Below, in pieces: positions 27,728 to 56,199 of a stretch of 58,689 nucleotides of DNA. The translations under genes were made by a program, and so were the position numbers. Source of the DNA: an uncultured Pseudomonas sp. (GTDB lineage: Bacteria; Pseudomonadota; Gammaproteobacteria; Pseudomonadales; Pseudomonadaceae); NCBI GenBank assembly GCA_964493255.1, contig CAZBNX010000001.1, positions 8,613 through 67,301 on the forward strand. The letters run 5' to 3'. The number at the start of each line of letters is the position of its first letter. Position 1 is the first letter of the stretch. The notes under the pieces were generated by a model that was not told where the DNA came from, searched no databases, and worked only from the letters and a program-made list of their open reading frames with translations.

Positions 27728-28843
27728 GTGAGTGGAATAACACCGTTAATTGATACTTTATTGCATCAAGTGCTGGGTAAGCGCGTTGATTTCTTGCGTG
27801 GTTTGCCATTGAATCCGCCAATTAATGCGCCTACTGCTTCAGAAGCGGCTCGCCCGGTAACTGATGATGCACAATTAGATAATGCTCCGACACCCGATCG
27901 AGCTACTTATTTATTAAGCAATAAAGCAGGGTTAGCTACAGCAAATGCTCAGGCGGCTATGAATCATGGCGCGGCAGTGATGTCAGCGCGCACACGTTTT
28001 AGTGAAGCGGCGCAATTAATATCCGATGCTTTATTAAGTGAAGAGGTGCAGATTCCTACCGTTAGTATTAAGAAACCCATTCTAACACCAGAAGTTGGTC
28101 AGCCTGTTTCGAGTCAGCAGGTAGCGGATAAATTAAAGCAAAGTATTTCAAGCAGTGGCTTATTTTATGAGTCGCATGTTGCTCGTTGGTATAAAGGAGA
28201 AATACCACTCAAAACTTTATTGGCTGAAGCGCAATCGCGTGCGTCGTTAATCTCAGCACAAGCCACCGCAGAGGATACGCCTGCCAATAGTACGGTAGTC
28301 GTTACTAAAGTAAATACAGACGCCGCCGTTGAAGCACCAGAGAAATTACTTTCATTAAATAATAAACAGATGCTTGCGAAAGAAGAAAGTGCTTCTGTTT
28401 TATTTGATAAGGGCGCATCGAATTCGCGCGAAAATTTAAATCCTACAACGCTGTTGCGTAATCAATTAGAGTTGATGAATACGCCCGTGTTGCGCTGGGA
28501 AGGTCAGGTATGGCCCGATTTTTCTGTTGCGCTGCAATTAAAACTCTTACCTTCTGGCGAGGAAGAAGAAGCAAAAAAACACAATAAAAAAGAGCAAAAC
28601 ACCTCTTCTTTTAAAGAGTGGGAGTTTCAATGTACTGTGCGCTCCTCTAATAAAAGTAAATTAGATATTCATGCGCGTAGTGACGGTATGAATTTATGGC
28701 TAACGCTAGGGAGTTGCTCAAAGGCGGTATTAGCGTTATTAGAACGAGATCGTGTTAAATTAACGCAGCGCCTTAAAGAACATGGATTTATTACGGTGGA
28801 GTTGCGCGGTCAATGGGTTCCGCGTGCAGAGGGTAGCGGATGA
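27728..28843 (+). CDS. FliK-family (hook-length-control-like) protein, second copy
   Basis: LKQSISSSGLFYESHVARW and QLELM..P.LRWEGQVWP motifs; low-complexity N-terminus; overlaps the downstream FlhB-domain gene. Confidence 0.65.
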   Translation: MSGITPLIDTLLHQVLGKRVDFLRGLPLNPPINAPTASEAARPVTDDAQLDNAPTPDRATYLLSNKAGLATANAQAAMNHGAAVMSARTRFSEAAQLISDALLSEEVQIPTVSIKKPILTPEVGQPVSSQQVADKLKQSISSSGLFYESHVARWYKGEIPLKTLLAEAQSRASLISAQATAEDTPANSTVVVTKVNTDAAVEAPEKLLSLNNKQMLAKEESASVLFDKGASNSRENLNPTTLLRNQLELMNTPVLRWEGQVWPDFSVALQLKLLPSGEEEEAKKHNKKEQNTSSFKEWEFQCTVRSSNKSKLDIHARSDGMNLWLTLGSCSKAVLALLERDRVKLTQRLKEHGFITVELRGQWVPRAEGSG

Positions 28844-29169: not shown

Positions 29170-29307
29170 CCCTTCAATGTATGTGATGCTCTGCTTATGT
29201 AAGAGTAGAGACTGTTATTTCTCCTTGATATTGCGCGTGATACAGTCCAAAGCCGAATCCTTGTGGCCATTTAGGCTGATATTTTGAAGATTTCAGGAGT
29301 ATGGGCT

Positions 29308-29634
29308 GTGAATGACGGTAGCATTCTTGAGGGTATTCAAGACCTGAATCTTTCCTATTTACTGCTTGTTCAGCGCCTGCTGCGTGAAGACCGCGCGATG
29401 GCTTTGTTTAGGTTGAATATGACCACTGAACAAGCGGATTTTCTAGCGAAATTATCAGGTAAGCAGTTGGGACAATTGGCTCGTAGTGGTCAGTTAGTGT
29501 GTCGTTTTGCGTTCGAAGATGTTACTCGGTTAGAGCGGATATTAGAAAGCTCGCGTGATCACGGATTAGAGCAGCTTCATGTTGCGTTGCTAATGACATC
29601 GTCAGGCCGCGAGACAGGGGGTCGAGTTGTCTGA
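29308..29634 (+). CDS. flhD: Master regulator FlhD
   Basis: [33 protein letters not shown]; GTG start after AGGAG. Confidence 0.95.
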
Positions 29635-30232
29635 CAAAAGCCTGATTAACGAAATGATGCAAATTCAGTTGGCGATAGAGCTGATTGAGTTGGGCGCGCG
29701 CCTGCAAGTATTGGAAAGTGAAACTGATCTTAGTCGTGGTCGATTAATTCGTTTGTACAAAGAAGTACGCGGAGTATCACCGCCTAAGGGGATGTTACCC
29801 TTTTCCACCGACTGGTTTATGACGTGGCTGCCTAACATTCATTCTTCGTTGTTTTACAACTTATATTCGGGGCTTATTGCAACAGGCTGTGAGCGTATGG
29901 AAGCCTTTGTAAAAGCATTCCGCTTGTATTTAGAGCACCTTGAAGAGGGCGAAGAAGGCGCGGTATTAGGGCTAACGCGCGCGTGGACTTTGGTGCGTTT
30001 TTTTGAAAGCGGGATGCTTGAACAGGTGCCTTGTACGGTATGTGGCGGACATTTTGTGACACATGCACACGGTGTTATTCGTAATAGTTATGTCTGTGGT
30101 TTGTGTCAACCGCCGTCGCGGGCGGGTAAAACCCGACGCCGCAAGGAACAAGAAGCTGAAGCGGCCAAGAATAAAGAAACACCTTCTGCGGGTACCCAAT
30201 GTTCTCTCGGTTCGACAGAGCGTAATTGCTGA
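29627..30232 (+). CDS. flhC: Master regulator FlhC
   Basis: [40 protein letters not shown], Zn site CTVC...CGLC, PPSRAGK; TTG start. Confidence 0.97.
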
Positions 30233-30394: not shown

Positions 30395-31255
30395 GTGCTG
30401 ATTGCTTCTGGTTTTCTCATTCTTATTTTGACGGTATTTGGCGGCTATGTCCTATCGGGGGGCGCGTTAGGTCCCTTGTACCAGCCCACTGAATTTTTGA
30501 TGATTGGTGGTGCCGCGATTGGCACCTTCATCGCATCGAATAATGGCAAAGTGATTAAAGCCACGCTCAAAGTTACGCCCAAATTGAAGCGCACCTTGAA
30601 ATATAACAAGGCGCTTTACATGGATTTGATGGCGTTGCTGTACAACATCTTGTCTAAGGCCCGACGTGAGGGGATGTTGGCGATTGAAAAAGAAATCGAA
30701 AACCCTTCTGAAAGTGCCATTTTTAAAGATTATCCGACGCTAGTTCAGGATCCGATGATTATGAACTTTCTGACGGATTATCTACGCCTGATGATTAGCG
30801 GCAACATGAATCCCCATGAATTAGATGAGCTGATGCTGCATGAAATTGAGGAGTTTGAGCACGAAGCGCATGTACCCGCCGATGCCTTGAGTAAAGTCAG
30901 TGATGCGTTGCCCGCATTTGGTATCGTTGCGGCAGTGATGGGGGTGGTAAAAGCACTGACAGCGGCTGACGTACCGCCAGAAGTCATGGGCGAAATGATT
31001 GCTCACGCATTGGTGGGTACTTTCGTGGGTATTTTCTTGGCGTATGGCTTCATTACGCCGGTTTCTAACCGGATTGACCGCCAAGTAGGCGAGGCTATGA
31101 AAGTGTTGCAGTGTATGCGCGTTACACTGCTGGCAAGTTTGAATGGCTATGCTCCGCAATTAGCGGTTGAATTTGGCCGCAAAGCCCTTTATACCGCAGA
31201 GCGTCCGGGCGCGACTGAACTAGAAGAATATGTTCGTAACGGTAAAGGGAGCTAA
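30395..31255 (+). CDS. motA: Proton-type stator MotA
   Basis: LPAFGIVAAVMGVV, ALVGTFVGIFLAYG, GYAPQLAVEFGRK (enteric-like). Confidence 0.96.
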   Translation: MLIASGFLILILTVFGGYVLSGGALGPLYQPTEFLMIGGAAIGTFIASNNGKVIKATLKVTPKLKRTLKYNKALYMDLMALLYNILSKARREGMLAIEKEIENPSESAIFKDYPTLVQDPMIMNFLTDYLRLMISGNMNPHELDELMLHEIEEFEHEAHVPADALSKVSDALPAFGIVAAVMGVVKALTAADVPPEVMGEMIAHALVGTFVGIFLAYGFITPVSNRIDRQVGEAMKVLQCMRVTLLASLNGYAPQLAVEFGRKALYTAERPGATELEEYVRNGKGS

Positions 31256-31258
31256 TTA

Positions 31259-32347
31259 ATGAGCGGTGATGAACACCGGCCTATAATCATCATCCGCCGT
31301 AAAAAGGTGGTGCATGGTCACCACGGCGGCGCGTGGAAAATTGCTTTCGCTGACTTTATGACAGCGTTGATGGCACTTTTTCTTGTGTTGTGGCTGTTGT
31401 CTTCTTCATCGCCACAGCATAAACAGGCTGTGGCCGAGTATTTCAGTACGCCGCTCATTGCTGCTATTGGCGCGGGTGATCGTAATGCTTCCAGTGCCAG
31501 CGTTATTCCGGGAGGGGGGCCTGATCCTACTTTCTCCGAAGGTGAGCGCGATCGCATTGACCCGCGTGAACAGCAGCTTTTGGCTGAAGAACGTGAACGC
31601 ATGGAAGAGCTGAAAGAACGTATAGAAGACGTTATTAACAGCAATGCACAGCTCAAAGAAATCCGTGATCAAATTCGTATTGATGCAACCCCTGAAGGCT
31701 TACGAATTCAGTTAGTGGATACAGAACAGCGCCCGATGTTTGAATTGGGCAGTGTGCGTTTAGCGCCCTATATGAAGACGTTACTTCGTACAATTGCGCC
31801 GATGTTGAATCAGTTACCGAATCGTATTCAAATCAGTGGACACACCGACGGCGTTCCTTACGTTGGTGGTGAGTCGGGTTATAGTAACTGGGAATTGTCG
31901 GCAGACCGTGCGGGTGCATCAAGGCGCGAGCTGATTACCGGTGGCTTGGCACCAGACAAATTGCTACGTGTGTCTGGCATGGCTGATCGTGTACCTTTTC
32001 CTGGTGCAGCACCGAATGCGGCAACAAATAGGCGGATTATGGTCGTAGTTTTAAATAGCAGCACGACTAAAGCAGTGTTAAGTCCGGGCGAAACAGCCAA
32101 GCCTGTGCCGACGCCTGCGCCTGCCGCTGTACCTCCTGCGCCTCCAGCGACGGCTCCGGCGACGCCATCAACCTTGCCATCGCCGACGGGTTCTTTGTCG
32201 ATTCCGGCTGTGGCGGCACCTCCAGTTATTGTTTCGCCGCTGCTATCGCCTAAAACGCCACCCACTGCTCCGGCTGCTCCAACAGCAACGCCAGCACCTA
32301 TACAAATAACAACGCCTGCCGTGAACGCCCCTGCAAAAGGCCCATAG
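31259..32347 (+). CDS. motB: Stator MotB with Pro/Ala-rich tail
   Basis: HHGGAWKIAFADFMTALMALFLVLWL; OmpA-like domain ISGHTD..SNWELSADRA..NRRI. Confidence 0.96.
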   Translation: MSGDEHRPIIIIRRKKVVHGHHGGAWKIAFADFMTALMALFLVLWLLSSSSPQHKQAVAEYFSTPLIAAIGAGDRNASSASVIPGGGPDPTFSEGERDRIDPREQQLLAEERERMEELKERIEDVINSNAQLKEIRDQIRIDATPEGLRIQLVDTEQRPMFELGSVRLAPYMKTLLRTIAPMLNQLPNRIQISGHTDGVPYVGGESGYSNWELSADRAGASRRELITGGLAPDKLLRVSGMADRVPFPGAAPNAATNRRIMVVVLNSSTTKAVLSPGETAKPVPTPAPAAVPPAPPATAPATPSTLPSPTGSLSIPAVAAPPVIVSPLLSPKTPPTAPAAPTATPAPIQITTPAVNAPAKGP

Positions 32348-43358: not shown

Positions 43359-44513
43359 ATGGCTGATGACAGTAGCGATGACGATAAAACAGAATCGGCA
43401 ACGCCCCGACGGCTAGAGAAAGCACGCGAAGAAGGCCAAGTACCACGCTCGCGTGAATTAGCGACATTCTTTATTTTATTGGGCGGTATTTTAGGGCTAT
43501 GGGGCTTGGGTGGCTTATTGTATGAGCAACTCAGCTTGCTCATGGAGAAAGCATTTCTCTTTGACCGACAACAGATATTTGATACCGCAAGCACGCTGAC
43601 TTATTTATGGTCGATGTGTGAAAAAGCATTGTTAGCGATATTGCCGCTCTTTTTGTTATCGGTTGTTTTGGCAATTGTAGGGCCTTCTGTTATTGGTGGT
43701 ATTTTAATTTCGGCTAAGTCGTTACAGCCTCAATTATCACGCTTGAATCCTTTGAAGGGATTGCAGCGTATGGTTTCAGCGCAAGCCTTGGCAGAGTTAG
43801 GTAAAGCGATTGCTAAAAGTGTATTAGTCGGAACAGTTGCTTTTTTATTTATTAAAGCACATATGAGTGAGTTATTAGGGTTGCCCCGAATGCCATTACA
43901 ACAGGCATTAGCGCATACGCTGCATTTGGTGGTGTTGGCCTGTGTTCAAATTGCATTGGCATTAATTATAGTGGTTGCGATAGATGTTCCTTATCAGCTT
44001 TGGAGTTATGCCAAAAAATTACGCATGAGTAAGGAAGAGCTTAAACGCGAACATAAAGAGTCGGAAGGAGACCCGCATTTAAAAGGGCGTATCCGAGCGC
44101 AACAGCAAGCCATGGCGCGTTCTCGAATGATGAGCAAAGTGCCAACAGCGGATGTCATTGTGACCAACCCAACACATTTTGCCGTTGCCTTGTCGTATCA
44201 GGAAAATAAGATGAAAGCGCCTTTCGTGGTGGCGAAAGGCGTTGAAGCCATGGCTGCGCGTATTCGTGATACAGGTGCAGAGCATGAAGTACCCTTATTA
44301 GAGGCGGCGTCTTTAGCGCGTGCGCTTTACTATCATGTAGACCTTGAGCAGGAAATTCCTGCTGAACTGTATACCGCCGTCGCAGAAGTTTTGGCGTGGG
44401 CTTATCGACTAAAACGTGTGCGTGAAGAAGGCGGCGAACAGCCTGATACGCCACATGATTTGCCAGTACCGGCGGGCATGGATTTGCCACGGGGCAAGCA
44501 TCTTGAGGAATAA
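43359..44513 (+). CDS. flhB: Export switch protein FlhB
   Basis: KTESATPRRLEKAREEGQVPRSREL, EGDP, NPTH autocleavage motif. Confidence 0.97.
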   Translation: MADDSSDDDKTESATPRRLEKAREEGQVPRSRELATFFILLGGILGLWGLGGLLYEQLSLLMEKAFLFDRQQIFDTASTLTYLWSMCEKALLAILPLFLLSVVLAIVGPSVIGGILISAKSLQPQLSRLNPLKGLQRMVSAQALAELGKAIAKSVLVGTVAFLFIKAHMSELLGLPRMPLQQALAHTLHLVVLACVQIALALIIVVAIDVPYQLWSYAKKLRMSKEELKREHKESEGDPHLKGRIRAQQQAMARSRMMSKVPTADVIVTNPTHFAVALSYQENKMKAPFVVAKGVEAMAARIRDTGAEHEVPLLEAASLARALYYHVDLEQEIPAELYTAVAEVLAWAYRLKRVREEGGEQPDTPHDLPVPAGMDLPRGKHLEE

Positions 44514-44518
44514 CCGAG

Positions 44519-46597
44519 TTGAATTTGAATGACCTGCTAGGGCTACGGAGCCAATTAGCTGGCACCAATATGAAGGTGTTAGTCGGGCCGCTGCTGTTGC
44601 TGCTAATTCTGTCGATGATGGTGCTGCCGCTGCCGCCCCTCATGCTTGACCTGTTTTTCACCTTTAATATCGCCTTATCTATCATGGTGTTATTGGTGAG
44701 TATGTTCACGCAGCGTCCGTTAGAGTTTGCGGCTTTTCCTTCGGTATTGCTGTTTACGACGTTGCTGCGATTGTCCCTGAACGTCGCGTCAACGCGGGTC
44801 GTATTGATGCACGGCCATGAAGGTGCCGATGCTGCCGGTAAGGTCATTGAGGCGTTCGGCCATTTCTTGGTAGGCGGTAATTTTGCGGTTGGCTTGGCGC
44901 TGTTTATGATTTTGGTTGTTATCAACTTCATGGTAATTACCAAGGGTGCGGGGCGGATTGCAGAGGTAGGCGCACGCTTCACCTTGGATGCGATGCCCGG
45001 CAAACAAATGGCGATTGATGCCGACTTAAACGCCGGTCTGATTGGTGAGGAAGAAGCTCGCAAGCGCCGTAAAGAAGTGTCGCAAGAGTCGGATTTCTAC
45101 GGCTCGATGGACGGTGCCAGCAAATTCGTGCGTGGTGATGCTGTCGCCGGTTTAATCATTATGGGCGTCAACATTTTAGGCGGCCTGTTGATTGGGATGC
45201 TTCAGCACAATATGGCGTTCGCTCAGGCCGCACAAAACTACGTCATGTTGACGATTGGTGATGGTCTGGTGGCGCAAATTCCTGCGTTAGTTATTTCGAT
45301 TGCGGCGGGTGTCATTGTTTCGCGGGTGAATACCGAAGAAGACGTTGGCCAGCAGATGATTGGCCAGCTCTTTTCTAGCCCTAAAGTGATGTTTTTATCG
45401 GCGGGCGTCATTGGTTTGCTGGGCTTGGTGCCCGGAATGCCCAACATTGTTTTTCTGCTTTTCACCGCTATTTTGGTGGGCGCGGGATGGTGGTTGAAAC
45501 AACGCGCTACATTAACCACCGCAGGGGCTGCGGAGTCTCTTCCTGCGCCTGTACAACATACGCAAATTGAAGCCACATGGGACGATGTACAGCTTGTTGA
45601 TACATTGGGAATGGAAGTTGGACACCGACTTATTTCATTAGTCGATAATCGTCAACAAGGTGAATTATTAGTGCGCTTAAAAAGTGTACGTAAGAAGTTT
45701 GCACAAGAAATAGGTTTTTTACCGCCGGTTGTGCATATCCGCGATAATTTAGAGTTACCGCCTAATCAGTATTGTATTTTATTGAAAGGCGTAGAAATTG
45801 GGCAGGGCGAGTTACATCCTAATAAATGGTTAGCCATCGACCCTGGACAAGTGACAGGCCGTTTAGAAGGTATTCGCACCACAGACCCAGCATTCGGCCT
45901 GCCTGCGGTATGGATTGATATTGGAATGCGTGAACACGCGCAGGTGTACGGTTATACCGTGGTTGATGCCAGCACCGTTGCCGCAACGCACCTCAATCAT
46001 TTATTAACACGCAATGCAGGCGAATTGTTAGGCCGTGTTGAAGTAAAACAATTACTCGATAAACTCGATAAAGCACAAGTAGAAGAAGTAGTACCTAAAT
46101 TACTTTCGATAACGGCCTTGCAACGCATATTGCAAAGTTTGTTAGAAGAGTCAGTTTCTATCCGTGATATGAATACCATTTTGGATACGCTGGCCGAACA
46201 TGCTACGCAACAAGCCGATATTCTTGAATTAGCAGGCGTGGTGCGTGTGGCATTGGGGCGTGCAATTACGCAACAATGGTTCTCCGGTTTGCCCGAATTG
46301 CGTGTGATTGGTTTAGATATGGGGCTTGAACAAGTGCTCATGCAAGCAATGGCTGCGGGCGGCGGTGCGTTCGAGCCGGGTTTGGCCGCCAGCTTATTAC
46401 AGCAAGCGGAAACGGCTTTGCATCGTCAGGAAGCCAGCGGGGAGCCTCCCGTTTTGGTCGTGCCGCATCGTTTGCGTGCTGTATTGTCGCGTTTTTTGCG
46501 TCGGCGAATGCCTCAGCTCGTGGTGATGTCTTTAGCTGAAATACCGGATGACCGTACTTTGCGTGTTACCAGTTTGATTGGAGCAAATAATCAATGA
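44519..46597 (+). CDS. flhA: Export gate FlhA
   Basis: RIAEVGARFTLDAMPGKQMAIDADLNAG, DFYGSMDGASKFVRGD. Confidence 0.98.
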   Translation: MNLNDLLGLRSQLAGTNMKVLVGPLLLLLILSMMVLPLPPLMLDLFFTFNIALSIMVLLVSMFTQRPLEFAAFPSVLLFTTLLRLSLNVASTRVVLMHGHEGADAAGKVIEAFGHFLVGGNFAVGLALFMILVVINFMVITKGAGRIAEVGARFTLDAMPGKQMAIDADLNAGLIGEEEARKRRKEVSQESDFYGSMDGASKFVRGDAVAGLIIMGVNILGGLLIGMLQHNMAFAQAAQNYVMLTIGDGLVAQIPALVISIAAGVIVSRVNTEEDVGQQMIGQLFSSPKVMFLSAGVIGLLGLVPGMPNIVFLLFTAILVGAGWWLKQRATLTTAGAAESLPAPVQHTQIEATWDDVQLVDTLGMEVGHRLISLVDNRQQGELLVRLKSVRKKFAQEIGFLPPVVHIRDNLELPPNQYCILLKGVEIGQGELHPNKWLAIDPGQVTGRLEGIRTTDPAFGLPAVWIDIGMREHAQVYGYTVVDASTVAATHLNHLLTRNAGELLGRVEVKQLLDKLDKAQVEEVVPKLLSITALQRILQSLLEESVSIRDMNTILDTLAEHATQQADILELAGVVRVALGRAITQQWFSGLPELRVIGLDMGLEQVLMQAMAAGGGAFEPGLAASLLQQAETALHRQEASGEPPVLVVPHRLRAVLSRFLRRRMPQLVVMSLAEIPDDRTLRVTSLIGANNQ

Positions 46598-49074
46598 GCG
46601 TCAAACGCTTCGTAGGGCCAACAAGCCGTGATGCTATGCGTCTTGTACGCGCTGCTTTGGGTGAAAATGCCCTGATTTTGTCGAATCGCAGCACGCCCGA
46701 GGGCGTAGAAATTTTGGCTATGGCTGATGAAACCCACAGTCAATTGACGGGTATACCGTCGTCTGTGCCGACGCCGAATGCTTCGCCCAGACCACAGCCC
46801 TCTCCGCAATCGGCTCCGACACGACCAACGGCACCGTCGCAAACGCCGCCAGCGCGTCCGGCGGCTCCGGCAGCGGCCCCACGTCCAGCCACGCCACCGC
46901 CGTCTGTGCCTTCTGCGGCACCTTCCGCTGCCCCGAGTGCCTATCAGCGTGCCGCTAGTTTGGCCGCTTATAACGCGCAGCTCCCTAACGCAACGCCTCC
47001 CGCTGCAACGCCGCCCATGCCTGCGCCCGTCGCGCCGTCAATGCCTGCCCATGCTAATGCGGCGAGCAGCATGATGGATTTTGCGGCACTCAGTGAACGC
47101 CTGTTCAGTGAGCTGCATGGAATGCGCGAGTTGTTAAATCGGCAAGCCAGCACGGCTGCCACGCGCAGCGATTGCGGGACGCAGTTGCATCAACAGTTGC
47201 TCGGTGCTGGATTTGGCCCTTGTTTAAGTGCAGAAGTGCTAGGCGCTTTGCCTGCTGAGTTTGCTGATTGTTCGGCGGAGCAGCCGAATGTCAAAGCATG
47301 GTTGGAGCGGCAAATGGCCGCACGCTTACCGGTGCTAGATGATGAAGCGCAGTTATTAGATGGTGGTGGCATCATCGCGCTCGTAGGGCCTACGGGGGTA
47401 GGCAAAACGACAACAACAGCAAAATTAGCGGCGCGTTATGTGATGCGTCATGGTGGTCAGCATGTAGCGTTGGTGACAACGGATAGCTTCCGTATTGGCG
47501 CGCATGAGCAATTACGAATTTATGCGCGTTTATTGGGTGTAGAAGTCTATGCCTTAGCCGCAGATGCCCCGTTAGATGAATTACTACATCAGCTTATTAA
47601 TAAGCGGCTGGTCATTATTGATACCGTTGGTATGAGTCAGCGCGACCGACGTTTATTGACGCAAATTAGTCAATTAGGTGCTGCCGGGCGGCCTATCCGA
47701 TTAATGCTATTGCTCAATGCAGCCAGTCACGGCGATACCCTTGAAGAAGTTGTAGATACCTATCAACGCGCAGCGACAGCGGCGGGTGCTTCATTGCGTG
47801 ATTGCATTGTCAGTAAATCAGATGAAGCGGCGCGTTTAGGGCCGGTACTGGATATTCTAATTCGTCGGGGATTGCGCCTTAATTATGTCGCAACCGGTCA
47901 GCAAGTACCGGAGGACTTACAATTAGCGGATGCCAGTGCTTTATTAAAGCAAGCATTAGCGGTGAGTCAGCCATCTCCTTTTGTGCCACAAGACAGCGCG
48001 CCGAGTAATGCAGCGCAACGCCTTGAAGCCTTATCGCGCGGTTTATTGGGTCAAGGGCGTGCGTTAGCCACCATTTTGGATAGCTTGCGTCAAAACGTAG
48101 ATGGCTTTTTGGTGCTCGAATCGGTGTGGCAGCTTATTGGATTGCCGCGTGTCTTGCAGGGAGAGCGGTTAGCGCAGCGGTTGCAAGCCTTAGAAGGGCA
48201 AGCGGCTTTGTATGCCAGCCAAGCCCTGTGGGGCCGTAACGCACCGGGTGCAGGCTGGAATATGCCGCTGTTGAGCTTTGATGCTGAGGGTCGTTTGGGG
48301 GTGCGTCCTTGGTTGGCGCATCAATTGCCAGCCGGTCAAGACCGGCGCTTGCATTGGGCGAATCAAGTCTTGCGCGCCGTGACGCACATTCTTCCGACGT
48401 GTCCCGATACGGACGGATTAGCCGAATTATCGACGCAGCGCAGTGCATGGGTGTGTTTAAGCAAAGCAGCAACGCGCGTGGATTACTTAGGTGAGCGGCA
48501 TAGCCTTGGGCAATTAAGTGGTGTCGCTGAATTGCATACCACAATGGATGTGCGTTACCGAGGGCGTCCGGTGCGCTTGGAGTTACTGCGTGCCGGGGTT
48601 CAGTTGCGCCCACAATCGCGTCAGGCAGACCAACCGACTTGGCCGGTGCAGGCTTGGTTTGGTCATCTTATAGCGCCTGACGATGGGCAGACATTAGGGC
48701 ATCGACAGTGGTTAGGATGGAGTCCTGAATTAGGACAAGCTGGGATGCAGCGTCAGGTTCAGGCGCTCCGATTGCAGTTAGAAACCGATGATTTACCGTC
48801 GCTTACGTTACGCGCGTGGCAATCACTCGGCGACACACACGCTACGTTGCAGCAAGAGTTACGTTTATTTATTGCTGCTGGATTGGCGGCGACCGCCAGC
48901 CGACTTGACCATAGCAGCGAAGAATGGGCGATGGATACACGCGCACAGTTGCTGAATATCAATGGTAGCCGTCGTCCTCGTGGGCCGGGGCCATTGTTAG
49001 ATGCGTTGCTGTATCTGATGGCTGCTCGTGATGCGTTTCGGCAAGTGGGCGCTTTAAGTAGCGGGTTGCTTTGA
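46594..49074 (+). CDS. flhF: FlhF SRP-family GTPase with long C-terminal extension
   Basis: MSVKRF..AMRLVRAALGENALILSNR N-terminus; GPTGVGKTTT, DSFRIGAHEQL, DTVG, SKSDE, GQQVPEDL; then about 370 extra residues. Confidence 0.9.
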   Translation: MSVKRFVGPTSRDAMRLVRAALGENALILSNRSTPEGVEILAMADETHSQLTGIPSSVPTPNASPRPQPSPQSAPTRPTAPSQTPPARPAAPAAAPRPATPPPSVPSAAPSAAPSAYQRAASLAAYNAQLPNATPPAATPPMPAPVAPSMPAHANAASSMMDFAALSERLFSELHGMRELLNRQASTAATRSDCGTQLHQQLLGAGFGPCLSAEVLGALPAEFADCSAEQPNVKAWLERQMAARLPVLDDEAQLLDGGGIIALVGPTGVGKTTTTAKLAARYVMRHGGQHVALVTTDSFRIGAHEQLRIYARLLGVEVYALAADAPLDELLHQLINKRLVIIDTVGMSQRDRRLLTQISQLGAAGRPIRLMLLLNAASHGDTLEEVVDTYQRAATAAGASLRDCIVSKSDEAARLGPVLDILIRRGLRLNYVATGQQVPEDLQLADASALLKQALAVSQPSPFVPQDSAPSNAAQRLEALSRGLLGQGRALATILDSLRQNVDGFLVLESVWQLIGLPRVLQGERLAQRLQALEGQAALYASQALWGRNAPGAGWNMPLLSFDAEGRLGVRPWLAHQLPAGQDRRLHWANQVLRAVTHILPTCPDTDGLAELSTQRSAWVCLSKAATRVDYLGERHSLGQLSGVAELHTTMDVRYRGRPVRLELLRAGVQLRPQSRQADQPTWPVQAWFGHLIAPDDGQTLGHRQWLGWSPELGQAGMQRQVQALRLQLETDDLPSLTLRAWQSLGDTHATLQQELRLFIAAGLAATASRLDHSSEEWAMDTRAQLLNINGSRRPRGPGPLLDALLYLMAARDAFRQVGALSSGLL

Positions 49075-49709
49075 TGTTTGGCTTCGATGACGACGAAAAG
49101 CGTTTTGATAACGGGCTTGGCGCGACGGATCAAGCGGCTGGGTTGCGTCGTTGGGCCGAGCGCCAAGGCTTAATTGGGGCGGATGGCTTACCGGTGACGG
49201 CACCACCGCCTGTTAGCACGGATGCCGTGACGACACCGCCACCGCCTCCTGTACCGGCAGCGCCACCACCACCGGTTGTTACGCCGCCAGCGCCTCCCGT
49301 TATTCGGCATACGTTGATGGTTGTTGGATTGCCAGATACTTCGGCGTATCAAACCCAACGTGCATGGGAGACGCTCGCGCGTTGGCATCAAAACGGACAC
49401 CGTTGGATAGGAAATCCGCATGAATGGCGGGTCGTTGCGTTGGAAGCAGATAGCCCCCACATTGGTATCTTGGCGGCACAGCAATCACGCTGGGCGCTAT
49501 GGGTAGAAGGCGATTTAGACAGTTTTCGGCGCGCCTATGTCACGTTGCGCGCGTTGATGAGTGCGGGGCAAATCTGGCGTTTGTTGGTTTTGCACCCGGG
49601 TATTCCTTCAAGACGTGGTTTTTTAACAAACCTTCAACAATCAGCCGCCAGTTTTCTGGGCATTGAATTGCTGTTATTCCCCGAATATCCGGGGGGGGAC
49701 CCAGAGTGA
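49074..49709 (+). CDS. Degenerate FlhG/FleN-like protein lacking the ATPase P-loop
   Basis: DQAAGLRR motif, flhG position between flhF and fliA, FlhG-like C-terminal half (SFRRAYVTLRAL; NLQQSAASFLGIEL). No GKGGVGK. TGATG-coupled to flhF. Confidence 0.65.
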   Translation: MFGFDDDEKRFDNGLGATDQAAGLRRWAERQGLIGADGLPVTAPPPVSTDAVTTPPPPPVPAAPPPPVVTPPAPPVIRHTLMVVGLPDTSAYQTQRAWETLARWHQNGHRWIGNPHEWRVVALEADSPHIGILAAQQSRWALWVEGDLDSFRRAYVTLRALMSAGQIWRLLVLHPGIPSRRGFLTNLQQSAASFLGIELLLFPEYPGGDPE

Positions 49710-50104
49710 AGCGCCTAAAGAAAATACTTGGGCTGCTTATTCTTTTTTCCAATATGGCGAGTGCAACTGAACCAATTGTCGGTGTTTGGCATACCGTCGT
49801 TCCAACTGTGCAAATTGCACTGATGGGAAAAACAGTTTCGTCGTCACGGTTATATCCACCCGCGTTGGCAACGGGGCATCGGCTTGCTTTTGTACGGTGG
49901 GCGTATCAGCTTTCCGTGCCTTATGGAGCGATGGTGTGGTTATGTCACCCCAGCCGCTGCGTTAAATTAAATGCAACGCAGGGACGCATATCTGAACTCG
50001 CGGGATTGGATGCAGCAGAACCATTATGGTTTGAATTTCAGCGTATTTCAGAACATGCCATCGTTGAGGTTCGTAATTTACAAATTCATGTTCAATATCG
50101 TTGA
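49706..50104 (+). CDS. flhE: Periplasmic flagellar protein FlhE
   Basis: Signal peptide, VRW.YQL, LCHPSRC Cys pair, 132 aa, downstream of flhBA. Confidence 0.82.
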   Translation: MKRLKKILGLLILFSNMASATEPIVGVWHTVVPTVQIALMGKTVSSSRLYPPALATGHRLAFVRWAYQLSVPYGAMVWLCHPSRCVKLNATQGRISELAGLDAAEPLWFEFQRISEHAIVEVRNLQIHVQYR

Positions 50105-50206: not shown

Positions 50207-50902
50207 ATGTATACGGCACAGGGCAAACTTAAACAAAACTACTTGCTAGAGCAGCACTTGCCGCTTGTGCGTCGTCAGGCGCTTAATTTGCGTGCGCGGC
50301 TACCACCTAGCGTTGAGTTAGATGACTTGATACAAGCAGGTACTATCGGGTTATTAGATGCCATGAAACGCTATGACCCTACGCAGGGCGTGAGTTTTGC
50401 GACCTTTGCCAATCAGCGTATTCGGGGCGCTATGCTGGACGAGTTGCGTAGTCGAGATTGGGTGCCGCGTAGTGTGCGTCGTGCAAATCGAGAGGTGGAT
50501 TCCGTATTGCGCCAATTAGAACAGCGTTTAGGTCGCGCACCTGAGGAGCGTGAAGTAGCTGCTGCGTTAGGTATAGAGTTGGCTGAATATCAGCAGATTT
50601 TATTAGATACTAATGGCAGTTACTTGGTTTCATTTGATGAAATGAGCACCGAAGAGTTTGATGCGCGTAGTTGCGAACATTATGCGTCGCCTTTTATCGA
50701 GTTTGCCCAAGGTCGAGAGCGCGATCGTTTAATAAAAGCGATTGAAACGCTCCCAGAGCGTGAGAAATTATTGCTGGCGCTTTACTATCAAGAAGAACTT
50801 AATTTAAAAGAAATAGGTGCTGTATTGGGTGTGAGTGAATCACGGGTGTGTCAGTTACATAGCCAAGCTATAGCGCGCTTACGTCAGCGTTTGGCGGATT
50901 AG
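50207..50902 (+). CDS. fliA: Sigma-28 FliA
   Basis: LPPSVELDDLIQAG, RIRGAMLDELRSRDWVPRSVR, LNLKEIGAVLGVSESRVCQLHSQA. Confidence 0.98.
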   Translation: MYTAQGKLKQNYLLEQHLPLVRRQALNLRARLPPSVELDDLIQAGTIGLLDAMKRYDPTQGVSFATFANQRIRGAMLDELRSRDWVPRSVRRANREVDSVLRQLEQRLGRAPEEREVAAALGIELAEYQQILLDTNGSYLVSFDEMSTEEFDARSCEHYASPFIEFAQGRERDRLIKAIETLPEREKLLLALYYQEELNLKEIGAVLGVSESRVCQLHSQAIARLRQRLAD

Positions 50903-51011: not shown

Positions 51012-52721
51012 ATGGAACAGCAGCAAGCTGAAGAAACCTATACGCGCCTTGATAATCCAGAGCGTTGCAAAGATTTACTAACGAATTTATGCGACAAGGG
51101 TGAAACGCATTTAGTGTGTATACACCAAGAGCAGCAGCCTTTACCCGTTGTATTACATCAAGTATTGCCAGGCGATATGTTGGTGTTAGATTTGACTACA
51201 GCGCCCGGCGTCGCAGACATGTTGGAAAAAATGCCCGCGTCGTTTGTATTGTCGGGGCGTTCCGGTGGTACGTTGCTGCAAACGTCACCGTTATATCCGC
51301 GTCAGCGTTTAGAAGCCGATGGGCGTATACAGATTTCATGCGATTGGCCTGCATGGTTGGAGGTATTACACCGTCGCAGCTCGTTCCGTGCTGAATTAAA
51401 TAACAGCATGAAGGTTGACGTTAATATCCGGTGTCAGCGTTATGATCGGTTGTTTAATGCGAAATTAATAAATTTATCATTAGGGGGCTGCTTATTAGAG
51501 TTGCCTGCATTGGGTGAGGCGCGTCATTTAGTATCGGGTGATATTTTAGAAAAGGTAGAACTGATTTTCCCAAATGGACAGCAAGTTATTTTAACGTCAT
51601 TAATTTGCCATGCTCAGTTAAACATAAATGGCAAAACAATGAGTCTAGGATGTGCTTTTAATGATTTAGATGCCGATTTAGAACGACGCATGTGGTTCTT
51701 TGTTCGAGAAATTGAACGTGAGCGTGCGCGTACTACGTTGGATGGTGATCCATCGTTAGCGCCTTCTGAATTATTTATTCCTGCGCGTAAAACGGGTATG
51801 CAGGCGTCAGACCGTCAACATGGTTTGGATTATGCGACGCCCATGGCACGTCGCTTGGCGCGTGTTGCTGTTTATTTAAATGCACAAATCCAGCGTTTGC
51901 AAAAAGGGGGAGATATTGATTCTGTACAATTATCTCGACACAGTGAGTTTCTTTTAGAGTTGTTAGATGAGGATCGTGAGTCATTATTGTTCGCCAGCCA
52001 CTGTTTAATAGAAGATTTACCGTTAATTCAACATAGTATTGCTGTTTCTGTACGGTTGGCTGATTTAATTATGGCGCGAAATGCGCCGCGCGAATTAGTT
52101 AAAAGTGTTGTTGCGTGTGCATTAGTACATGATTTGGGTAAAGCGTTATTGCCTGCTTCATTATTGCATGTTGAGCGTATGACGCTCGAACAACGACAAG
52201 AATTTGCCAGCCATGTTTCTCTGATACGAATGCGGATGGGGGCATGTAAATGGATTCCAGAAGGCGTTATGCGCGGTATTATTGATGGAATTAACGAGCG
52301 ATTAGATGGTAGTGGTTATCCATTATCATTGAGTGGAAATCAATTAGGTGAATTAGCCAGAGTTGCAGCAGTTGTTGATGTTATTGATGCAATGAGTCGT
52401 GCTAGACCTGACCGCCCCGGTCAGCCAGTAAGTGGTATATATCGTTATTTAATTGGGCGTGAGGCACAGCTTGATGCTCAGTGGTGCAGCCGATATATAA
52501 GACACTTTGGCATTATTCCTATTGGTGCGTTGGTGCGTTTTTCTACGGGGCAATTAGCGTGGGTACAGAGCTTGGATGCACAGGGGCGAATTGCAGGTGT
52601 TCATCTGACCGATTCAGCCACCCTACAAGGTAAGACGTTAGGGCATACGCTATCGGGGCCCACGCTGGAAGCATTAGGACGAGTTGACGGTATTATTGTT
52701 CCCAAAATGGGATGGGTTTAG
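51012..52721 (+). CDS. YcgR/PilZ flagellar-brake domain fused to an HD-GYP-like domain
   Basis: PilZ motifs RRSSFR and NLSLGG. HD-GYP elements HSIAVS, HDLGK, INERLDGSGYP, VVDVIDAM..RP.R. Confidence 0.85.
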   Translation: MEQQQAEETYTRLDNPERCKDLLTNLCDKGETHLVCIHQEQQPLPVVLHQVLPGDMLVLDLTTAPGVADMLEKMPASFVLSGRSGGTLLQTSPLYPRQRLEADGRIQISCDWPAWLEVLHRRSSFRAELNNSMKVDVNIRCQRYDRLFNAKLINLSLGGCLLELPALGEARHLVSGDILEKVELIFPNGQQVILTSLICHAQLNINGKTMSLGCAFNDLDADLERRMWFFVREIERERARTTLDGDPSLAPSELFIPARKTGMQASDRQHGLDYATPMARRLARVAVYLNAQIQRLQKGGDIDSVQLSRHSEFLLELLDEDRESLLFASHCLIEDLPLIQHSIAVSVRLADLIMARNAPRELVKSVVACALVHDLGKALLPASLLHVERMTLEQRQEFASHVSLIRMRMGACKWIPEGVMRGIIDGINERLDGSGYPLSLSGNQLGELARVAAVVDVIDAMSRARPDRPGQPVSGIYRYLIGREAQLDAQWCSRYIRHFGIIPIGALVRFSTGQLAWVQSLDAQGRIAGVHLTDSATLQGKTLGHTLSGPTLEALGRVDGIIVPKMGWV

Positions 52722-54511: not shown

Positions 54512-55309
54512 ATGAACCCCTCTACGTTAATTGGGATATTTTCCAGCGTGGCTTTGTTGGCCGTGTTGCTATTATTTGCGGCCGAAGATCCAAGGCTTTT
54601 TTTAGATTTACCAAGTTTAGGGATCGTTCTTATTGGAACGCTCGCGGCTACTTTTATTAGTTACCCGTTGGGTGAGGTAATGCGTATATTTGGATTATTT
54701 GGTACCGTATTGCGTAATGAGAAAATGTACGCAGAAAACGATATTGAAGAGTTGGTCAATATATCAAGATTATGGATGTCTGGCAGTATTAGGCAAGTGG
54801 AGAGCGCATTAGAAAATGTACGTAATCCGTTTTTGAAAACAGGGGTGCAACTGGTTGTAGATAATACACCGGAGGAAGATATTTTAGAGTTATTACAATG
54901 GAGAATTGCGCGCTTACGAGCAAGAGAACATGCAGAAGCGCAGTTATTCCGCGTTATGGCAGGTTTTGCGCCTGCTTTTGGTATGGTGGGAACGCTGGTT
55001 GGTTTAGTTAATTTAATGTTTTTGTTAGGTGATGGAGATATGGTAGCTATCGGAAGACAGTTAGCCATTGCTCTTATGACTACATTTTATGGTGTTCTTC
55101 TCGCTAATCTTATCTTCAAGCCAGTTGCAGTAAAGTTAGAGCGTCGAACAGAACAGCGCGTCGTTTTAATGAACATGGTAATGCAGGGGATTTCTATGAT
55201 GAGTAATAAAAGAAGCCCCACATTAATGCGTGAAATCTTGAATACGTTTATGGCTCAATATCACGATGAAATTAATGATACTCGCTCGCGTCGCTCTAAT
55301 CGTGCGTAG
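54512..55309 (+). CDS. Second stator A subunit (PomA/MotP-like)
   Basis: FLDLPSLGIVLIGT, NPFLKTGVQLVVD, APAFGMVGTLVGLV, AIALMTTFYG..LANLIFKP. Confidence 0.88.
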   Translation: MNPSTLIGIFSSVALLAVLLLFAAEDPRLFLDLPSLGIVLIGTLAATFISYPLGEVMRIFGLFGTVLRNEKMYAENDIEELVNISRLWMSGSIRQVESALENVRNPFLKTGVQLVVDNTPEEDILELLQWRIARLRAREHAEAQLFRVMAGFAPAFGMVGTLVGLVNLMFLLGDGDMVAIGRQLAIALMTTFYGVLLANLIFKPVAVKLERRTEQRVVLMNMVMQGISMMSNKRSPTLMREILNTFMAQYHDEINDTRSRRSNRA

Positions 55310-55320
55310 GATGATGTCAT

Positions 55321-56199
55321 ATGAATACGCCATCAGATAAGCCAGATATTGAAGTAGTACCTCCTGAGTCGGTTGCAGCGGTTGTTGAAAACCCGCAGCC
55401 GCAAGCTGTTTCGGGAGGAACGATTACATCTTCTAAGCAAGCAATGTTACAACGGCAACGCGAATTAGAACGTGCTTTAGCACGATCTCAACAGGTAGCA
55501 CTGCGCGTTAAGCGTAAAAATATGAGTGCTACTGAAAATCTTACGGAGCCAGAAGAGGAAGTATGGTTAGTTACCTATCTTGATATGCTTACGTTATTAC
55601 TTGTTATGATGGTTATCATGGTAAGTTCAGCGGGGCATTTACAAAAAAAAGTAACTGAAAGTGAGGTAATAGCCACTTCGCAAAGTGGTATTTTACCGCT
55701 TAATTCTGGCGTTCTTCCTGATCAGCCGTTACCGCAGTCTCCTTCGTCTGTTGCAGATAACAATGATCCTTTGTCTGCGTTGTCTGTAGATCAATTGGGC
55801 AAAGATGTTGACGTTATTGTGAATGAAGGTTCGATTAGTTTTCGTATTAGTAGTGAAATTCTTTTCTCTTCTGGACAAGCCGAGCTTAGTTTAGATGGTT
55901 TGCGCGTATTACAAAAAATAGTTTCTGTACTCAGTAGTAGCCAGCATCAAATCTCTGTTGGTGGACATACGGATGCTGTTCCCATTCATAGTGTTCGTTT
56001 TCCTTCTAATTGGGAATTATCCAGTGCGCGTGCTGGAAGTGTTGTGCGCTATTTAGAAGCAAATGGCATCGCGAGTGGGCGTTTGCGTGCTGTTGGATAT
56101 GCCGATACTCATCCTTTGGCAGAAAATGCGAGCGCGGAAGGGCGTGCAACTAACAGACGTGTGGAGTTGGTTTTGGAAACGCCAAAGGCTACAAAATAG
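55321..56199 (+). CDS. Second stator B subunit (PomB/MotS-like, OmpA-type peptidoglycan-binding domain)
   Basis: WLVTYLDMLTLLLV transmembrane segment with the catalytic Asp; GHTD..FPSNWELSSARA..GYADTHP..NRRVE. Confidence 0.88.
   Translation: MNTPSDKPDIEVVPPESVAAVVENPQPQAVSGGTITSSKQAMLQRQRELERALARSQQVALRVKRKNMSATENLTEPEEEVWLVTYLDMLTLLLVMMVIMVSSAGHLQKKVTESEVIATSQSGILPLNSGVLPDQPLPQSPSSVADNNDPLSALSVDQLGKDVDVIVNEGSISFRISSEILFSSGQAELSLDGLRVLQKIVSVLSSSQHQISVGGHTDAVPIHSVRFPSNWELSSARAGSVVRYLEANGIASGRLRAVGYADTHPLAENASAEGRATNRRVELVLETPKATK

What the first reader, a model, noticed from the sequence alone, without database searches (positions are those of the whole stretch)
46594..50104. Remodelled FlhF/FlhG module inserted into an enteric flhBA-flhE unit
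Seen: gene order flhB-flhA-flhF-(flhG remnant)-flhE-fliA, with overlapping stop/start codons from flhA through flhE. Established: E. coli and Salmonella have flhBAE and no flhFG, whereas polar systems have flhA-flhF-flhG-fliA. Inference: this is a hybrid in which both placement/number-control proteins are heavily rebuilt. It may be an uncharacterised way to pattern flagella in an FlhDC-driven system. This is my best candidate for a new system in the window.
Basis: partly seen in the sequence, partly recalled or inferred. Interest (0 to 1): 0.8.

Follow-up and report, generated by a model that had tools for sequence, protein, structure and literature searches.

The report
Tamed transposase fused to flagellar GTPase
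The flagellum-placing GTPase FlhF here carries a conserved 370-residue tail predicted to fold like Tn5 transposase and likely unable to cut DNA, next to a shrunken likely FlhG that keeps the FlhF-activating motif but has no ATP-binding loop; the tail would serve as a new anchor for non-polar flagella, in the flagellar lineage from which E. coli's likely descends.

Summary
The gene order flhB-flhA-flhF-orfX-flhE-fliA is real, but it is already in print (PMC11247099) and is not an insertion into an enteric unit. It is the betaproteobacterial-type FlhDC system; E. coli most likely lost flhFG from it (FlhA tree). The FlhF GTPase core is intact, not rebuilt. orfX is a mini-FlhG: the DQAxxLR activator motif is in 109 of 109 homologues, a Walker A motif in none, and there is no membrane tail. 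The new result is FlhF residues 455-826. A confident model (pLDDT 91) matches only Tn5 transposase in Foldseek (all 6 hits at E<=0.001) and gives Z 11.8 in VIA. Homologous tails from Burkholderiales FlhF hit IS4 transposase profiles (best E 1.4e-8). No tail keeps the DDE triad (0 of 202), yet the tail is under purifying selection (dN/dS 0.12-0.26). It occurs in Azotobacter, Halomonadaceae, Pseudomonas second flagella, Cupriavidus, Collimonas and Variovorax. I read it as a domesticated dead IS4 transposase fused to FlhF, probably once. Its likeliest role is a non-catalytic anchor, perhaps on nucleoid DNA, that frees FlhF from the pole; this is untested. Ten literature searches showed no report of it. 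New variant of a known kind; interest 0.72.

The parts
29284..30232 (+). flhD-flhC master regulator of this flagellar cluster
   Evidence: PF05247 E 2e-29, PF05280 E 1e-81
43359..44513 (+). flhB
   Evidence: PF01312 E 1e-128
44519..46597 (+). flhA, of the betaproteobacterial/enteric-type clade
   Evidence: PF00771; tree
46594..49074 (+). long flhF, 826 aa: conserved N-terminal ~48 aa, Pro/Ala linker, NG GTPase, transposase-like tail
47371..47958 (+). intact SRP-type GTPase domain of FlhF (residues 260-455; G1 265-272, D297/R300, G3 343-346, K408/D410, G5 435-441)
   Evidence: PF00448 E 5e-33; motifs intact in 51 of 51 homologues
47956..49071 (+). FlhF tail (residues 455-826): predicted Tn5/IS4-type transposase fold without the DDE triad (mapped positions N549, P601, D732)
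   Evidence: model pLDDT 91.1; Foldseek; VIA Z 11.8 over residues 494-826
49074..49709 (+). orfX, mini-FlhG (211 aa): activator motif, Pro-rich linker, reduced MinD-like core, no Walker A, no membrane tail
49128..49148 (+). DQAAGLR enhancer-helix motif of orfX (residues 19-25)
   Evidence: DQAxxLR in 109 of 109; role from PMC12826062
49706..50104 (+). flhE
   Evidence: PF06366 E 2e-15; NF047946 E 2e-14, below cut-off
50207..50902 (+). fliA (sigma-28)
   Evidence: sigma70 r2/r3/r4; position and identity to fliA of related loci

Best explanation
This is an FlhDC-type flagellar operon whose FlhF keeps an intact GTPase and carries a conserved tail predicted to be a domesticated, likely inactive IS4/Tn5-type transposase that would anchor FlhF away from the pole, probably on nucleoid DNA, while a likely mini-FlhG would switch the GTPase off through its DQAxxLR helix. 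Steps: (1) SHOWN: GTPase motifs intact; tail conserved and under purifying selection; orfX keeps DQAxxLR and lacks Walker A and the C-terminal membrane segment. (2) PREDICTED (about 0.9): the tail derives from an IS4-family transposase that fused in frame to flhF, probably once, in the ancestor of the Cupriavidus/Collimonas-type system, and lost its DDE chemistry. The cluster then spread to Halomonadaceae and Pseudomonadaceae; enterics lost flhFG. (3) INFERRED from family knowledge (about 0.75): GTP-bound FlhF dimers catch FliG/FliF through the N-terminus, and orfX acts as an ATP-independent, membrane-independent GTPase activator that releases FlhF so the C-ring can be finished. It has no FleQ-repressing role, since FlhDC is the master regulator here. 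(4) INFERRED (about 0.35): the tail replaces the polar landmark (HubP/FimV) as FlhF's tether by binding DNA without sequence specificity, so basal bodies start along the side of the cell over the nucleoid, giving lateral or peritrichous flagella.
For: Fold: model of residues 455-826 made without templates and with no transposase in its alignment, pLDDT 91.1, pTM 0.88. All 6 Foldseek hits at E<=0.001 are Tn5 transposase entries (3.4e-7 to 8e-7; next hit 0.026). VIA: Tn5 1mm8 Z 11.8, 286 aligned, rmsd 5.8, the only Z>=8 of 48,161 chains; next is piggyBac transposase at 7.5. Sequence bridge: tails of 13 Burkholderiales long FlhFs hit IS4 model NF033590 in 8 of 13 (best E 1.4e-8), and three more IS4 models and one IS701 model in 1-3 rows each. 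They align colinearly over 371 columns with 6 IS4 transposases (hhalign E 1.9e-4); one of those six matches Tn5 at E 1e-30. Gamma-only and beta-only tail profiles find each other in 130 of 130 and 72 of 72 sequences (window tail 51 bits). Dead but kept: 0 of 130 beta and 0 of 72 gamma tails have all three acids; dN/dS is 0.12-0.26 in 12 of 12 pairs. Arginines or lysines are kept at 628, 654, 656 and 704 in 64-72 of 72 gamma tails. One origin is compatible with the FlhA tree: 16 long-FlhF systems plus E. coli plus one short-FlhF system form one clade, 100/99. Mini-FlhG: motif in 109 of 109, Walker A in 0 of 109; top VIA hit is FlhG 4rz2 (Z 7.8, rmsd 3.6, 126 aligned), FleN 8p53 Z 7.0; the orfX profile hits betaproteobacterial FlhGs at both ends and a MinD-like protein at E 4.6e-4 among 1.84 billion; intermediates with decayed P-loops exist; dN/dS 0.12-0.33 in 7 of 7 pairs. 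Peritrichous carriers: A. vinelandii (PMC5031763; 758-aa FlhF) and A. xylosoxidans (937-aa FlhF; preprint).
Against: The window's own tail has no direct sequence hit to transposases: no Pfam hit, the gamma-only profile scores at most 0.8 bits on IS4 proteins against 6.1 on shuffles, and hhalign of A5 with A9 finds nothing. TM-scores to Tn5 are only 0.38-0.47 and hhalign probability for the beta tails is 47%. Against DNA binding: net charge of the tails is +0.5 per 100 aa against +2.35 for 9 IS4 proteins, and the Tn5 Y-R-E-K and W298 positions are not kept in gamma tails. Against a simple link to peritrichy: the FlhDC-driven second flagella of P. fluorescens F113 form a polar tuft, and P. brassicacearum/fluorescens carry a full 763-aa FlhF (F113's own protein was not checked). 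Collimonas and Herminiimonas are polar flagellates as I recall. Some Pseudomonas copies lack residues ~540-615 of the tail yet stay under selection. For orfX, Z 7.8 is within the range of chance for alpha/beta folds, Foldseek ranks flavodoxins first, and hhalign to canonical FlhG is weak (E 0.042). In Vibrio the DQAxxLR motif is needed for FlhF activation in vitro but is dispensable for limiting flagellar number (preprint). Trees are single-gene; the FlhF-core tree needs 2 changes for the tail (quick tree).
Confidence: 0.4

Rival explanations
1. The tail is transposase-derived but works as a protein scaffold: it dimerises or oligomerises FlhF independently of GTP through the Tn5-like C-terminal helices, or binds a basal-body or envelope partner. 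DNA is not involved.
For: Many of the most conserved gamma positions lie in the C-terminal helices (L734-D813), the region aligned to Tn5's C-terminus, which I recall as its dimerisation domain. Net charge is low. The internal deletion in L015/L016 removes part of the RNase H core and keeps these helices. Long FlhF persists where no flhG follows it (L107, L108).
Against: The whole catalytic-domain fold, the basic beta-hairpin (R654, R656) and R628/R704 are retained in most lineages, which is more than a dimer helix bundle needs.
Confidence: 0.3
2. The tail is a sequence-specific DNA-binding module that makes FlhF a feedback regulator of flagellar transcription (for example at flhDC or fliA promoters). 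It replaces the FlhG-FleQ checkpoint that an FlhDC system cannot use.
For: The review says nothing is known of how FlhF or FlhG couple to master regulators other than FleQ/FlrA (PMC12826062). orfX has lost the ATPase needed for FleQ control. Transposase capture into regulators is a known route in eukaryotes (search listings).
Against: No binding site was sought or found. The N-terminal DNA-binding helices of the transposase align only weakly. FlhF is expected to act at the membrane.
Confidence: 0.13
3. The tail is a near-neutral passenger of an old IS insertion, kept only because truncation would destabilise FlhF. The module behaves as an ordinary FlhF/FlhG pair.
For: The tail evolves faster than the GTPase in 12 of 12 pairs. 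It is missing from a short-FlhF system inside the same FlhA clade (L114) and is partly deleted in L015/L016.
Against: dN/dS is well below 1 in 12 of 12 pairs, and ~370 residues with invariant W/R/L positions are kept across Pseudomonadaceae, Halomonadaceae and Burkholderiales.
Confidence: 0.1
4. The resemblance to Tn5 reflects only a generic RNase H-like fold. The tail comes from another nuclease-fold family.
For: Low TM-scores, rmsd 5.8, and no direct sequence hit for the window's tail. Argonaute PIWI domains appear at Z 5-6.
Against: Tn5 stands 4 Z units above the next chain and covers the insertion and C-terminal parts, not just the core. Independent IS4 profile hits and a full-length colinear alignment exist for the homologous beta tails.
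Confidence: 0.07

Closest known systems
flhB-flhA-(flhF-flhG)-flhE operons of Enterobacterales, Pseudomonadales and Burkholderiales (Halte et al. 2024, PMC11247099; passages read)
   Same: Same order, downstream of the chemotaxis genes. [quoted passage not shown]
   Different: The passages read say nothing about FlhF length, the transposase-like tail or the reduced FlhG. Its Fig. S1a is a picture and was not seen.
[quoted passage not shown]
   Same: Same kind of cluster in a pseudomonad. A. vinelandii has the same long FlhF, orfX and flhE (L006).
   Different: The paper never mentions flhF, flhG or flhE (0 occurrences). Pseudomonas second-flagellum loci lack flhE after orfX (10 of 10 such loci).
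FlhF-FlhG switch of Vibrio, Shewanella and Bacillus (review PMC12826062; main text read)
   Same: SRP-type GTPase motifs, flhG directly behind flhF, DQAxxLR enhancer helix.
   Different: Canonical FlhF ends about 20-60 residues after G5; here 385 follow. Canonical FlhG is an ATPase with a membrane-targeting tail; orfX has neither.
NCBIfam PRK14723 (NF011312), a 768-position long FlhF model
   Same: A long FlhF is already catalogued; the window tail alone hits positions 542-743 (E 4e-6).
   Different: Named only 'FlhF', with no domain assigned to the tail. The window protein scores 441 against cut-off 951.
Tn5 (IS50, IS4 family) transposase, PDB 1mm8/1mus/1b7e
   Same: Best structural match over FlhF residues 494-826.
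   Different: No DDE triad, no YREK motif, no flanking inverted repeats; fused to a GTPase, single copy, under purifying selection.
Burkholderia glumae FlhDC-dependent FlhF (PMC3885665; passages read)
   Same: FlhF places flagella in an FlhDC-driven system, so that combination is known.
   Different: Flagella are polar. Its FlhF length was not checked here.

Membership tests
FlhF (SRP-type GTPase) | G1-G5 GTPase motifs including DxxR and GQxVPxD | tested here: met
   51 of 51 homologues including the window protein
FlhF (SRP-type GTPase) | TIGR03499 above cut-off; gene directly after flhA | tested here: met
   239 bits against 174
FlhF (SRP-type GTPase) | N-terminal FliG-interaction domain | tested here: inconclusive
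   Residues 1-48 are conserved with short FlhFs; FliG binding not tested
FlhF (SRP-type GTPase) | GTP-dependent homodimer that places flagella | not testable with these tools
   needs biochemistry and mutants
PRK14723 long FlhF | score above curated cut-off | tested here: not met
   441 against 951 bits; no genome over cut-off
FlhG/FleN (MinD-type ATPase) | N-terminal DQAxxLR enhancer helix | tested here: met
   109 of 109; helix 20-30 in the model
FlhG/FleN (MinD-type ATPase) | gene directly downstream of flhF | tested here: met
   window; 20 of 21 long-FlhF loci
FlhG/FleN (MinD-type ATPase) | deviant Walker A (KGGxGK[TS]) | tested here: not met
   0 of 109
FlhG/FleN (MinD-type ATPase) | C-terminal membrane-targeting segment | tested here: not met
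   orfX ends a median 15 residues after the last aligned helix (86 of 109 measurable) against 76-78 in 3 complete canonical FlhGs
FlhG/FleN (MinD-type ATPase) | MinD fold | tested here: inconclusive
   FlhG is the top VIA hit but Z 7.8 ties with unrelated folds; Foldseek ranks flavodoxin first. Works like FlhG's activator part and derives from FlhG; not filed as a full member.
FlhG/FleN (MinD-type ATPase) | stimulates FlhF GTPase | not testable with these tools
   needs an assay
IS4-family (IS50/Tn5) transposase | Tn5-type RNase H fold with insertion and C-terminal domain | tested here: met
IS4-family (IS50/Tn5) transposase | match to IS4 family profiles | tested here: inconclusive
   Window tail: none. 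Homologous beta tails: 8 of 13 hit NF033590, best E 1.4e-8; the one row whose score was shown had 14.6 bits against cut-off 160
IS4-family (IS50/Tn5) transposase | catalytic D-D-E triad | tested here: not met
   0 of 130 beta and 0 of 72 gamma tails; window N549/P601/D732 (positions mapped by alignment)
IS4-family (IS50/Tn5) transposase | Y-x2-R-x3-E-x6-K motif (motif recalled; seen in alignment A9) | tested here: not met
   window L725/Q728/D732/L739; partly kept in beta tails (R 64, E 95 of 130)
IS4-family (IS50/Tn5) transposase | terminal inverted repeats, free-standing mobile element | tested here: not met
   no repeat pair brackets the tail; in-frame fusion; no IS4 match in G000
IS4-family (IS50/Tn5) transposase | DNA binding and dimerisation | not tested
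   DNA binding needs an experiment; a homodimer prediction could not be run
FlhE | PF06366 domain, last structural gene of the flhBA operon | tested here: met
   57 bits against cut-off 25
betaproteobacterial-type FlhDC flagellar system | flhDC master operon; cheZ-flhB-flhA order; FlhA outside the polar gamma clade | tested here: met

The most novel reading that the evidence does not exclude
An IS4 transposase was captured once by FlhF in the ancestor of the FlhDC flagellum, and its dead, DNA-binding body turned a pole-seeking GTPase into a nucleoid-tethered one. That was the step from polar to peritrichous flagellation in the lineage that later gave E. coli and Salmonella their flagellum; they then discarded both the fusion and FlhG. 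It would be a bacterial case of transposase domestication into a cell-patterning switch.
Probability: 0.25. Interest if true: 0.9.

Novelty: new variant of a known kind. Interest (0 to 1): 0.72.

Why it matters
A 2025 review names as open questions how FlhF/FlhG work in non-polar flagellates and whether enteric peritrichous placement is regulated or random (PMC12826062). This locus offers a concrete, deletable element: a transposase-derived tail on FlhF in the flagellar clade that contains E. coli's FlhA, plus a naturally minimal FlhG that separates GTPase activation from ATPase, membrane and FleQ functions. Both can be tested in tractable hosts such as A. vinelandii, Halomonas and Cupriavidus. 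A transposase kept under selection as a domain of a conserved bacterial housekeeping GTPase would also interest the mobile-DNA field. The gene order itself is not news.

Tried and rejected
Rejected: (a) Hybrid or insertion into an enteric operon: the order is published and the tree points to loss in enterics. (b) Degenerate FlhF GTPase: motifs intact. (c) Frameshift, read-through or recent IS insertion into flhF: the same 826-aa protein is on record from many contigs, the fusion is conserved across orders, dN/dS is low, and there are no IS ends. (d) The tail as orfX's dedicated partner: the tail also occurs with a fuller FlhG (L038, L068-L079, L109) and with no FlhG behind it (L107, L108). Led nowhere: Pfam on tails (in one search one DDE_Tnp_1 hit at E 0.1); PDB sequence-profile searches; hhalign A5 against A9; ESM Atlas (one search gave no answer for the window protein; with the A. 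vinelandii homologue gave no usable hit); earlier findings of this scan (nothing). The A5-A7 hhalign was set aside because A5 holds one beta row; one search repeats the test with disjoint sets. The joint MAFFT alignment misplaced the second catalytic aspartate, so that position was mapped from the hhalign alignment and motif instead. A homodimer prediction for the tail was never run because the queue was full, so dimerisation is open.
Full report
Observation. The window is one flagellar and chemotaxis cluster with flhD and flhC. The host assembly G000 is 68% complete and holds one FlhF over cut-off. Its FlhA is closest to that of Pseudomonas sp. NW5, then Azotobacter, so I infer a member of Pseudomonadaceae.

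Distribution. Of 27 loci returned for FlhF, 21 have a long FlhF: Azotobacter, Pseudomonas sp. NW5, Halomonadaceae and Pseudomonas second-flagellum clusters. An intact orfX follows in 20 of the 21 and flhE in 11 of 21. The other 6 loci have short FlhF. orfX occurs in 13 of 61 genomes searched around G000, including 10 of 12 of the same genus, and forms a compact family of 59 clusters among 1.84 billion representatives. A long FlhF also occurs in Burkholderiales: 13 of 251 genomes of one family, 6 of 401 genomes across the order by the tail profile, and proteins named FlhF from Collimonas, Herminiimonas, Polaromonas, Rhodoferax, Variovorax and Cupriavidus.

What is already known. Halte et al. 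[quoted passage not shown] Its text supplements held no mention of flhF or flhG; Fig. S1a was not visible. Ferreira et al. 2021 (PMC8042155, passages) derive the enteric flagellum from a betaproteobacterium and never mention flhF. The 2025 review (PMC12826062, main text read) says flhFG were either not transferred to enterics or lost. B. glumae uses FlhF under FlhDC for polar flagella (PMC3885665, passages). So neither the order nor FlhF under FlhDC is new. My FlhA tree (36 rows, 488 columns, careful search) puts all 16 long-FlhF systems, E. coli and one short-FlhF system (L114) in one clade with 100/99 support, apart from 9 polar gammaproteobacterial systems. Holding the 16 long systems together without those two is rejected (p-AU 0.013). 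Loss of the module in enterics is therefore likelier than insertion into an enteric unit. The rows were a hand-picked subset of the loci held, and it is a single-gene tree.

FlhF core. All five GTPase motifs are intact in 51 of 51 homologues, and the domain is strongly constrained (dN/dS 0.005-0.16). The oddity is the 385 residues after G5. NCBIfam already has a 768-position FlhF model that covers this tail (PRK14723; E 4e-6 for the window tail), but names no domain.

The tail is transposase-like. A template-free model of residues 455-826 from 70 FlhF sequences has pLDDT 91.1 and pTM 0.88. All 6 Foldseek hits at E<=0.001 are Tn5 transposase entries. VIA gives Tn5 Z 11.8, 286 aligned, rmsd 5.8, the only Z>=8 among 48,161 chains, followed by piggyBac transposases at 7.5 and 7.0. 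Sequence supports this through a bridge. Disjoint gamma and beta tail profiles find each other in 130 of 130 and 72 of 72 sequences (the sets contain near-duplicates). Beta tails hit IS4 model NF033590 in 8 of 13 (best E 1.4e-8) and align end to end with six genomic IS4 transposases (371 columns, E 1.9e-4, probability 47%). The beta profile scores 10.7-12 bits on 3 of 9 IS4 proteins (two of the three are near-identical copies) against at most 6.4 on 459 shuffled or reversed controls. Against this, the gamma profile alone does not beat its controls, hhalign A5-A9 fails, and TM-scores are 0.38-0.47. I put transposase ancestry at about 0.9.

It is dead but kept. Mapped by alignment (Tn5 numbering recalled; motifs seen), the first catalytic aspartate is G in 108 of 130 beta tails and absent from all 72 gamma tails. 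The second is D in 26 of 130 and 1 of 72. The third acid is kept as D or E in 125 of 130 and 63 of 72. No tail has all three. No inverted repeats bracket it. dN/dS is 0.12-0.26 in 12 of 12 pairs. Basic residues are kept at 585, 628, 654, 656, 704, 757 and 783, but overall charge is near neutral.

orfX is a mini-FlhG. DQAxxLR is in 109 of 109 homologues and a Walker A motif in none; the protein ends about 60 residues earlier than canonical FlhG, so the membrane segment is gone. The model (pLDDT 79.6) has FlhG as top VIA hit (Z 7.8) and FleN at 7.0, which is weak alone; Foldseek ranks flavodoxins first and hhalign is marginal. The orfX profile picks out betaproteobacterial FlhGs at the helix and at the C-terminal core, and those FlhGs already show decayed P-loops, giving a graded series. 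The review assigns FlhF GTPase stimulation to the motif's glutamine. A Vibrio preprint confirms this in vitro but finds the motif dispensable for limiting flagellar number (10.1101/2022.03.19.484964, passages). G000 also keeps a separate fleQ-fleN pair whose FleN has a P-loop and no DQAxxLR, so the two jobs of FlhG are split between two proteins in this genome.

Mechanism. Shown: intact GTPase, conserved tail without the triad, activator motif without ATPase. Inferred: FlhF-GTP catches the nascent MS/C-ring, orfX turns it off without needing ATP or membrane, and the tail supplies the tether that HubP/FimV give polar FlhF. I commit to non-specific DNA binding as that tether, which would start flagella along the cell side (about 0.35); a DNA-independent scaffold is a close rival (0.3). 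A. vinelandii and A. xylosoxidans (937-aa FlhF; preprint 10.1101/2025.07.29.667465, passages) are peritrichous, which fits. F113's second flagella are a polar tuft and Collimonas and Herminiimonas are polar as I recall, which does not. The dimer prediction could not be run because the queue was full.

Novelty. Ten searches of the open-access library (listings, with the papers above and PMC8036289 read in passages) showed no report of a transposase-like FlhF tail or of this mini-FlhG. One search matched 1,090 papers of which I saw 20, and subscription papers and preprint supplements were not searchable, so absence from print is not proven. The Achromobacter preprint modelled the long FlhF and has no occurrence of 'transposase' in its main text. 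Verdict: a known operon type, with a new FlhF/FlhG variant built on a domesticated IS4-type transposase. Interest 0.72.

Noticed in passing
G000:C28, locus L112:3566-5887: Orphan fleQ (PF06490 plus sigma-54 activator) and fleN-like gene (P-loop present, no DQAxxLR) directly upstream of ccm genes; likely a remnant of the lost polar flagellar system, recalling A. vinelandii, which keeps fleQ.
   Followed up: partly
window 30395-32347 and 54512-56199: Two stator pairs: motAB beside flhDC and a second MotA/MotB-like pair after fliC. The second pair also occurs beside fliC in several Pseudomonas second-flagellum loci.
   Followed up: no
window 51012-52721: 569-aa PilZ plus HD-domain protein directly after fliA, conserved at this place in Azotobacter and Pseudomonas sp. 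NW5 loci (L001-L006); a possible c-di-GMP flagellar brake or phosphodiesterase.
   Followed up: no
L015:9009-9818, L016:8910-9710: Pseudomonas second-flagellum FlhFs of 570-606 aa lack window-equivalent residues ~540-615 of the tail (part of the RNase H core) but keep the C-terminal helices.
   Followed up: partly
L020:9706-9900: orfX is broken shortly after its DQAAGLR motif while flhF and fliA are intact.
   Followed up: no
L107:5450-8167, L108:7015-9651: Long FlhF (about 880-900 aa) with no flhG-like gene behind it; other flagellar genes follow instead.
   Followed up: partly
L038-L044, L051, L059, L060, L068-L079, L109: Betaproteobacterial FlhG proteins widely show decayed Walker A loops, so ATPase-dead FlhG may be the rule in FlhDC systems.
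   Followed up: partly
L109:10608-11327, L110:12434-13012: An flhE-like gene lies after fliA, not before it, in two Burkholderiales loci (weak blastp hits).
   Followed up: no
L111:9757-10263; P0219, P0222, P0224-P0226: Even more reduced mini-FlhG forms (136-170 aa) in Halomonadaceae keep DQAxGLR.
   Followed up: no
window 27728-28843: 371-aa ORF between the fliT-like gene and a small FlhB-like gene with no Pfam hit at E 1e-5; possibly FliK-like by position (recalled).
   Followed up: no
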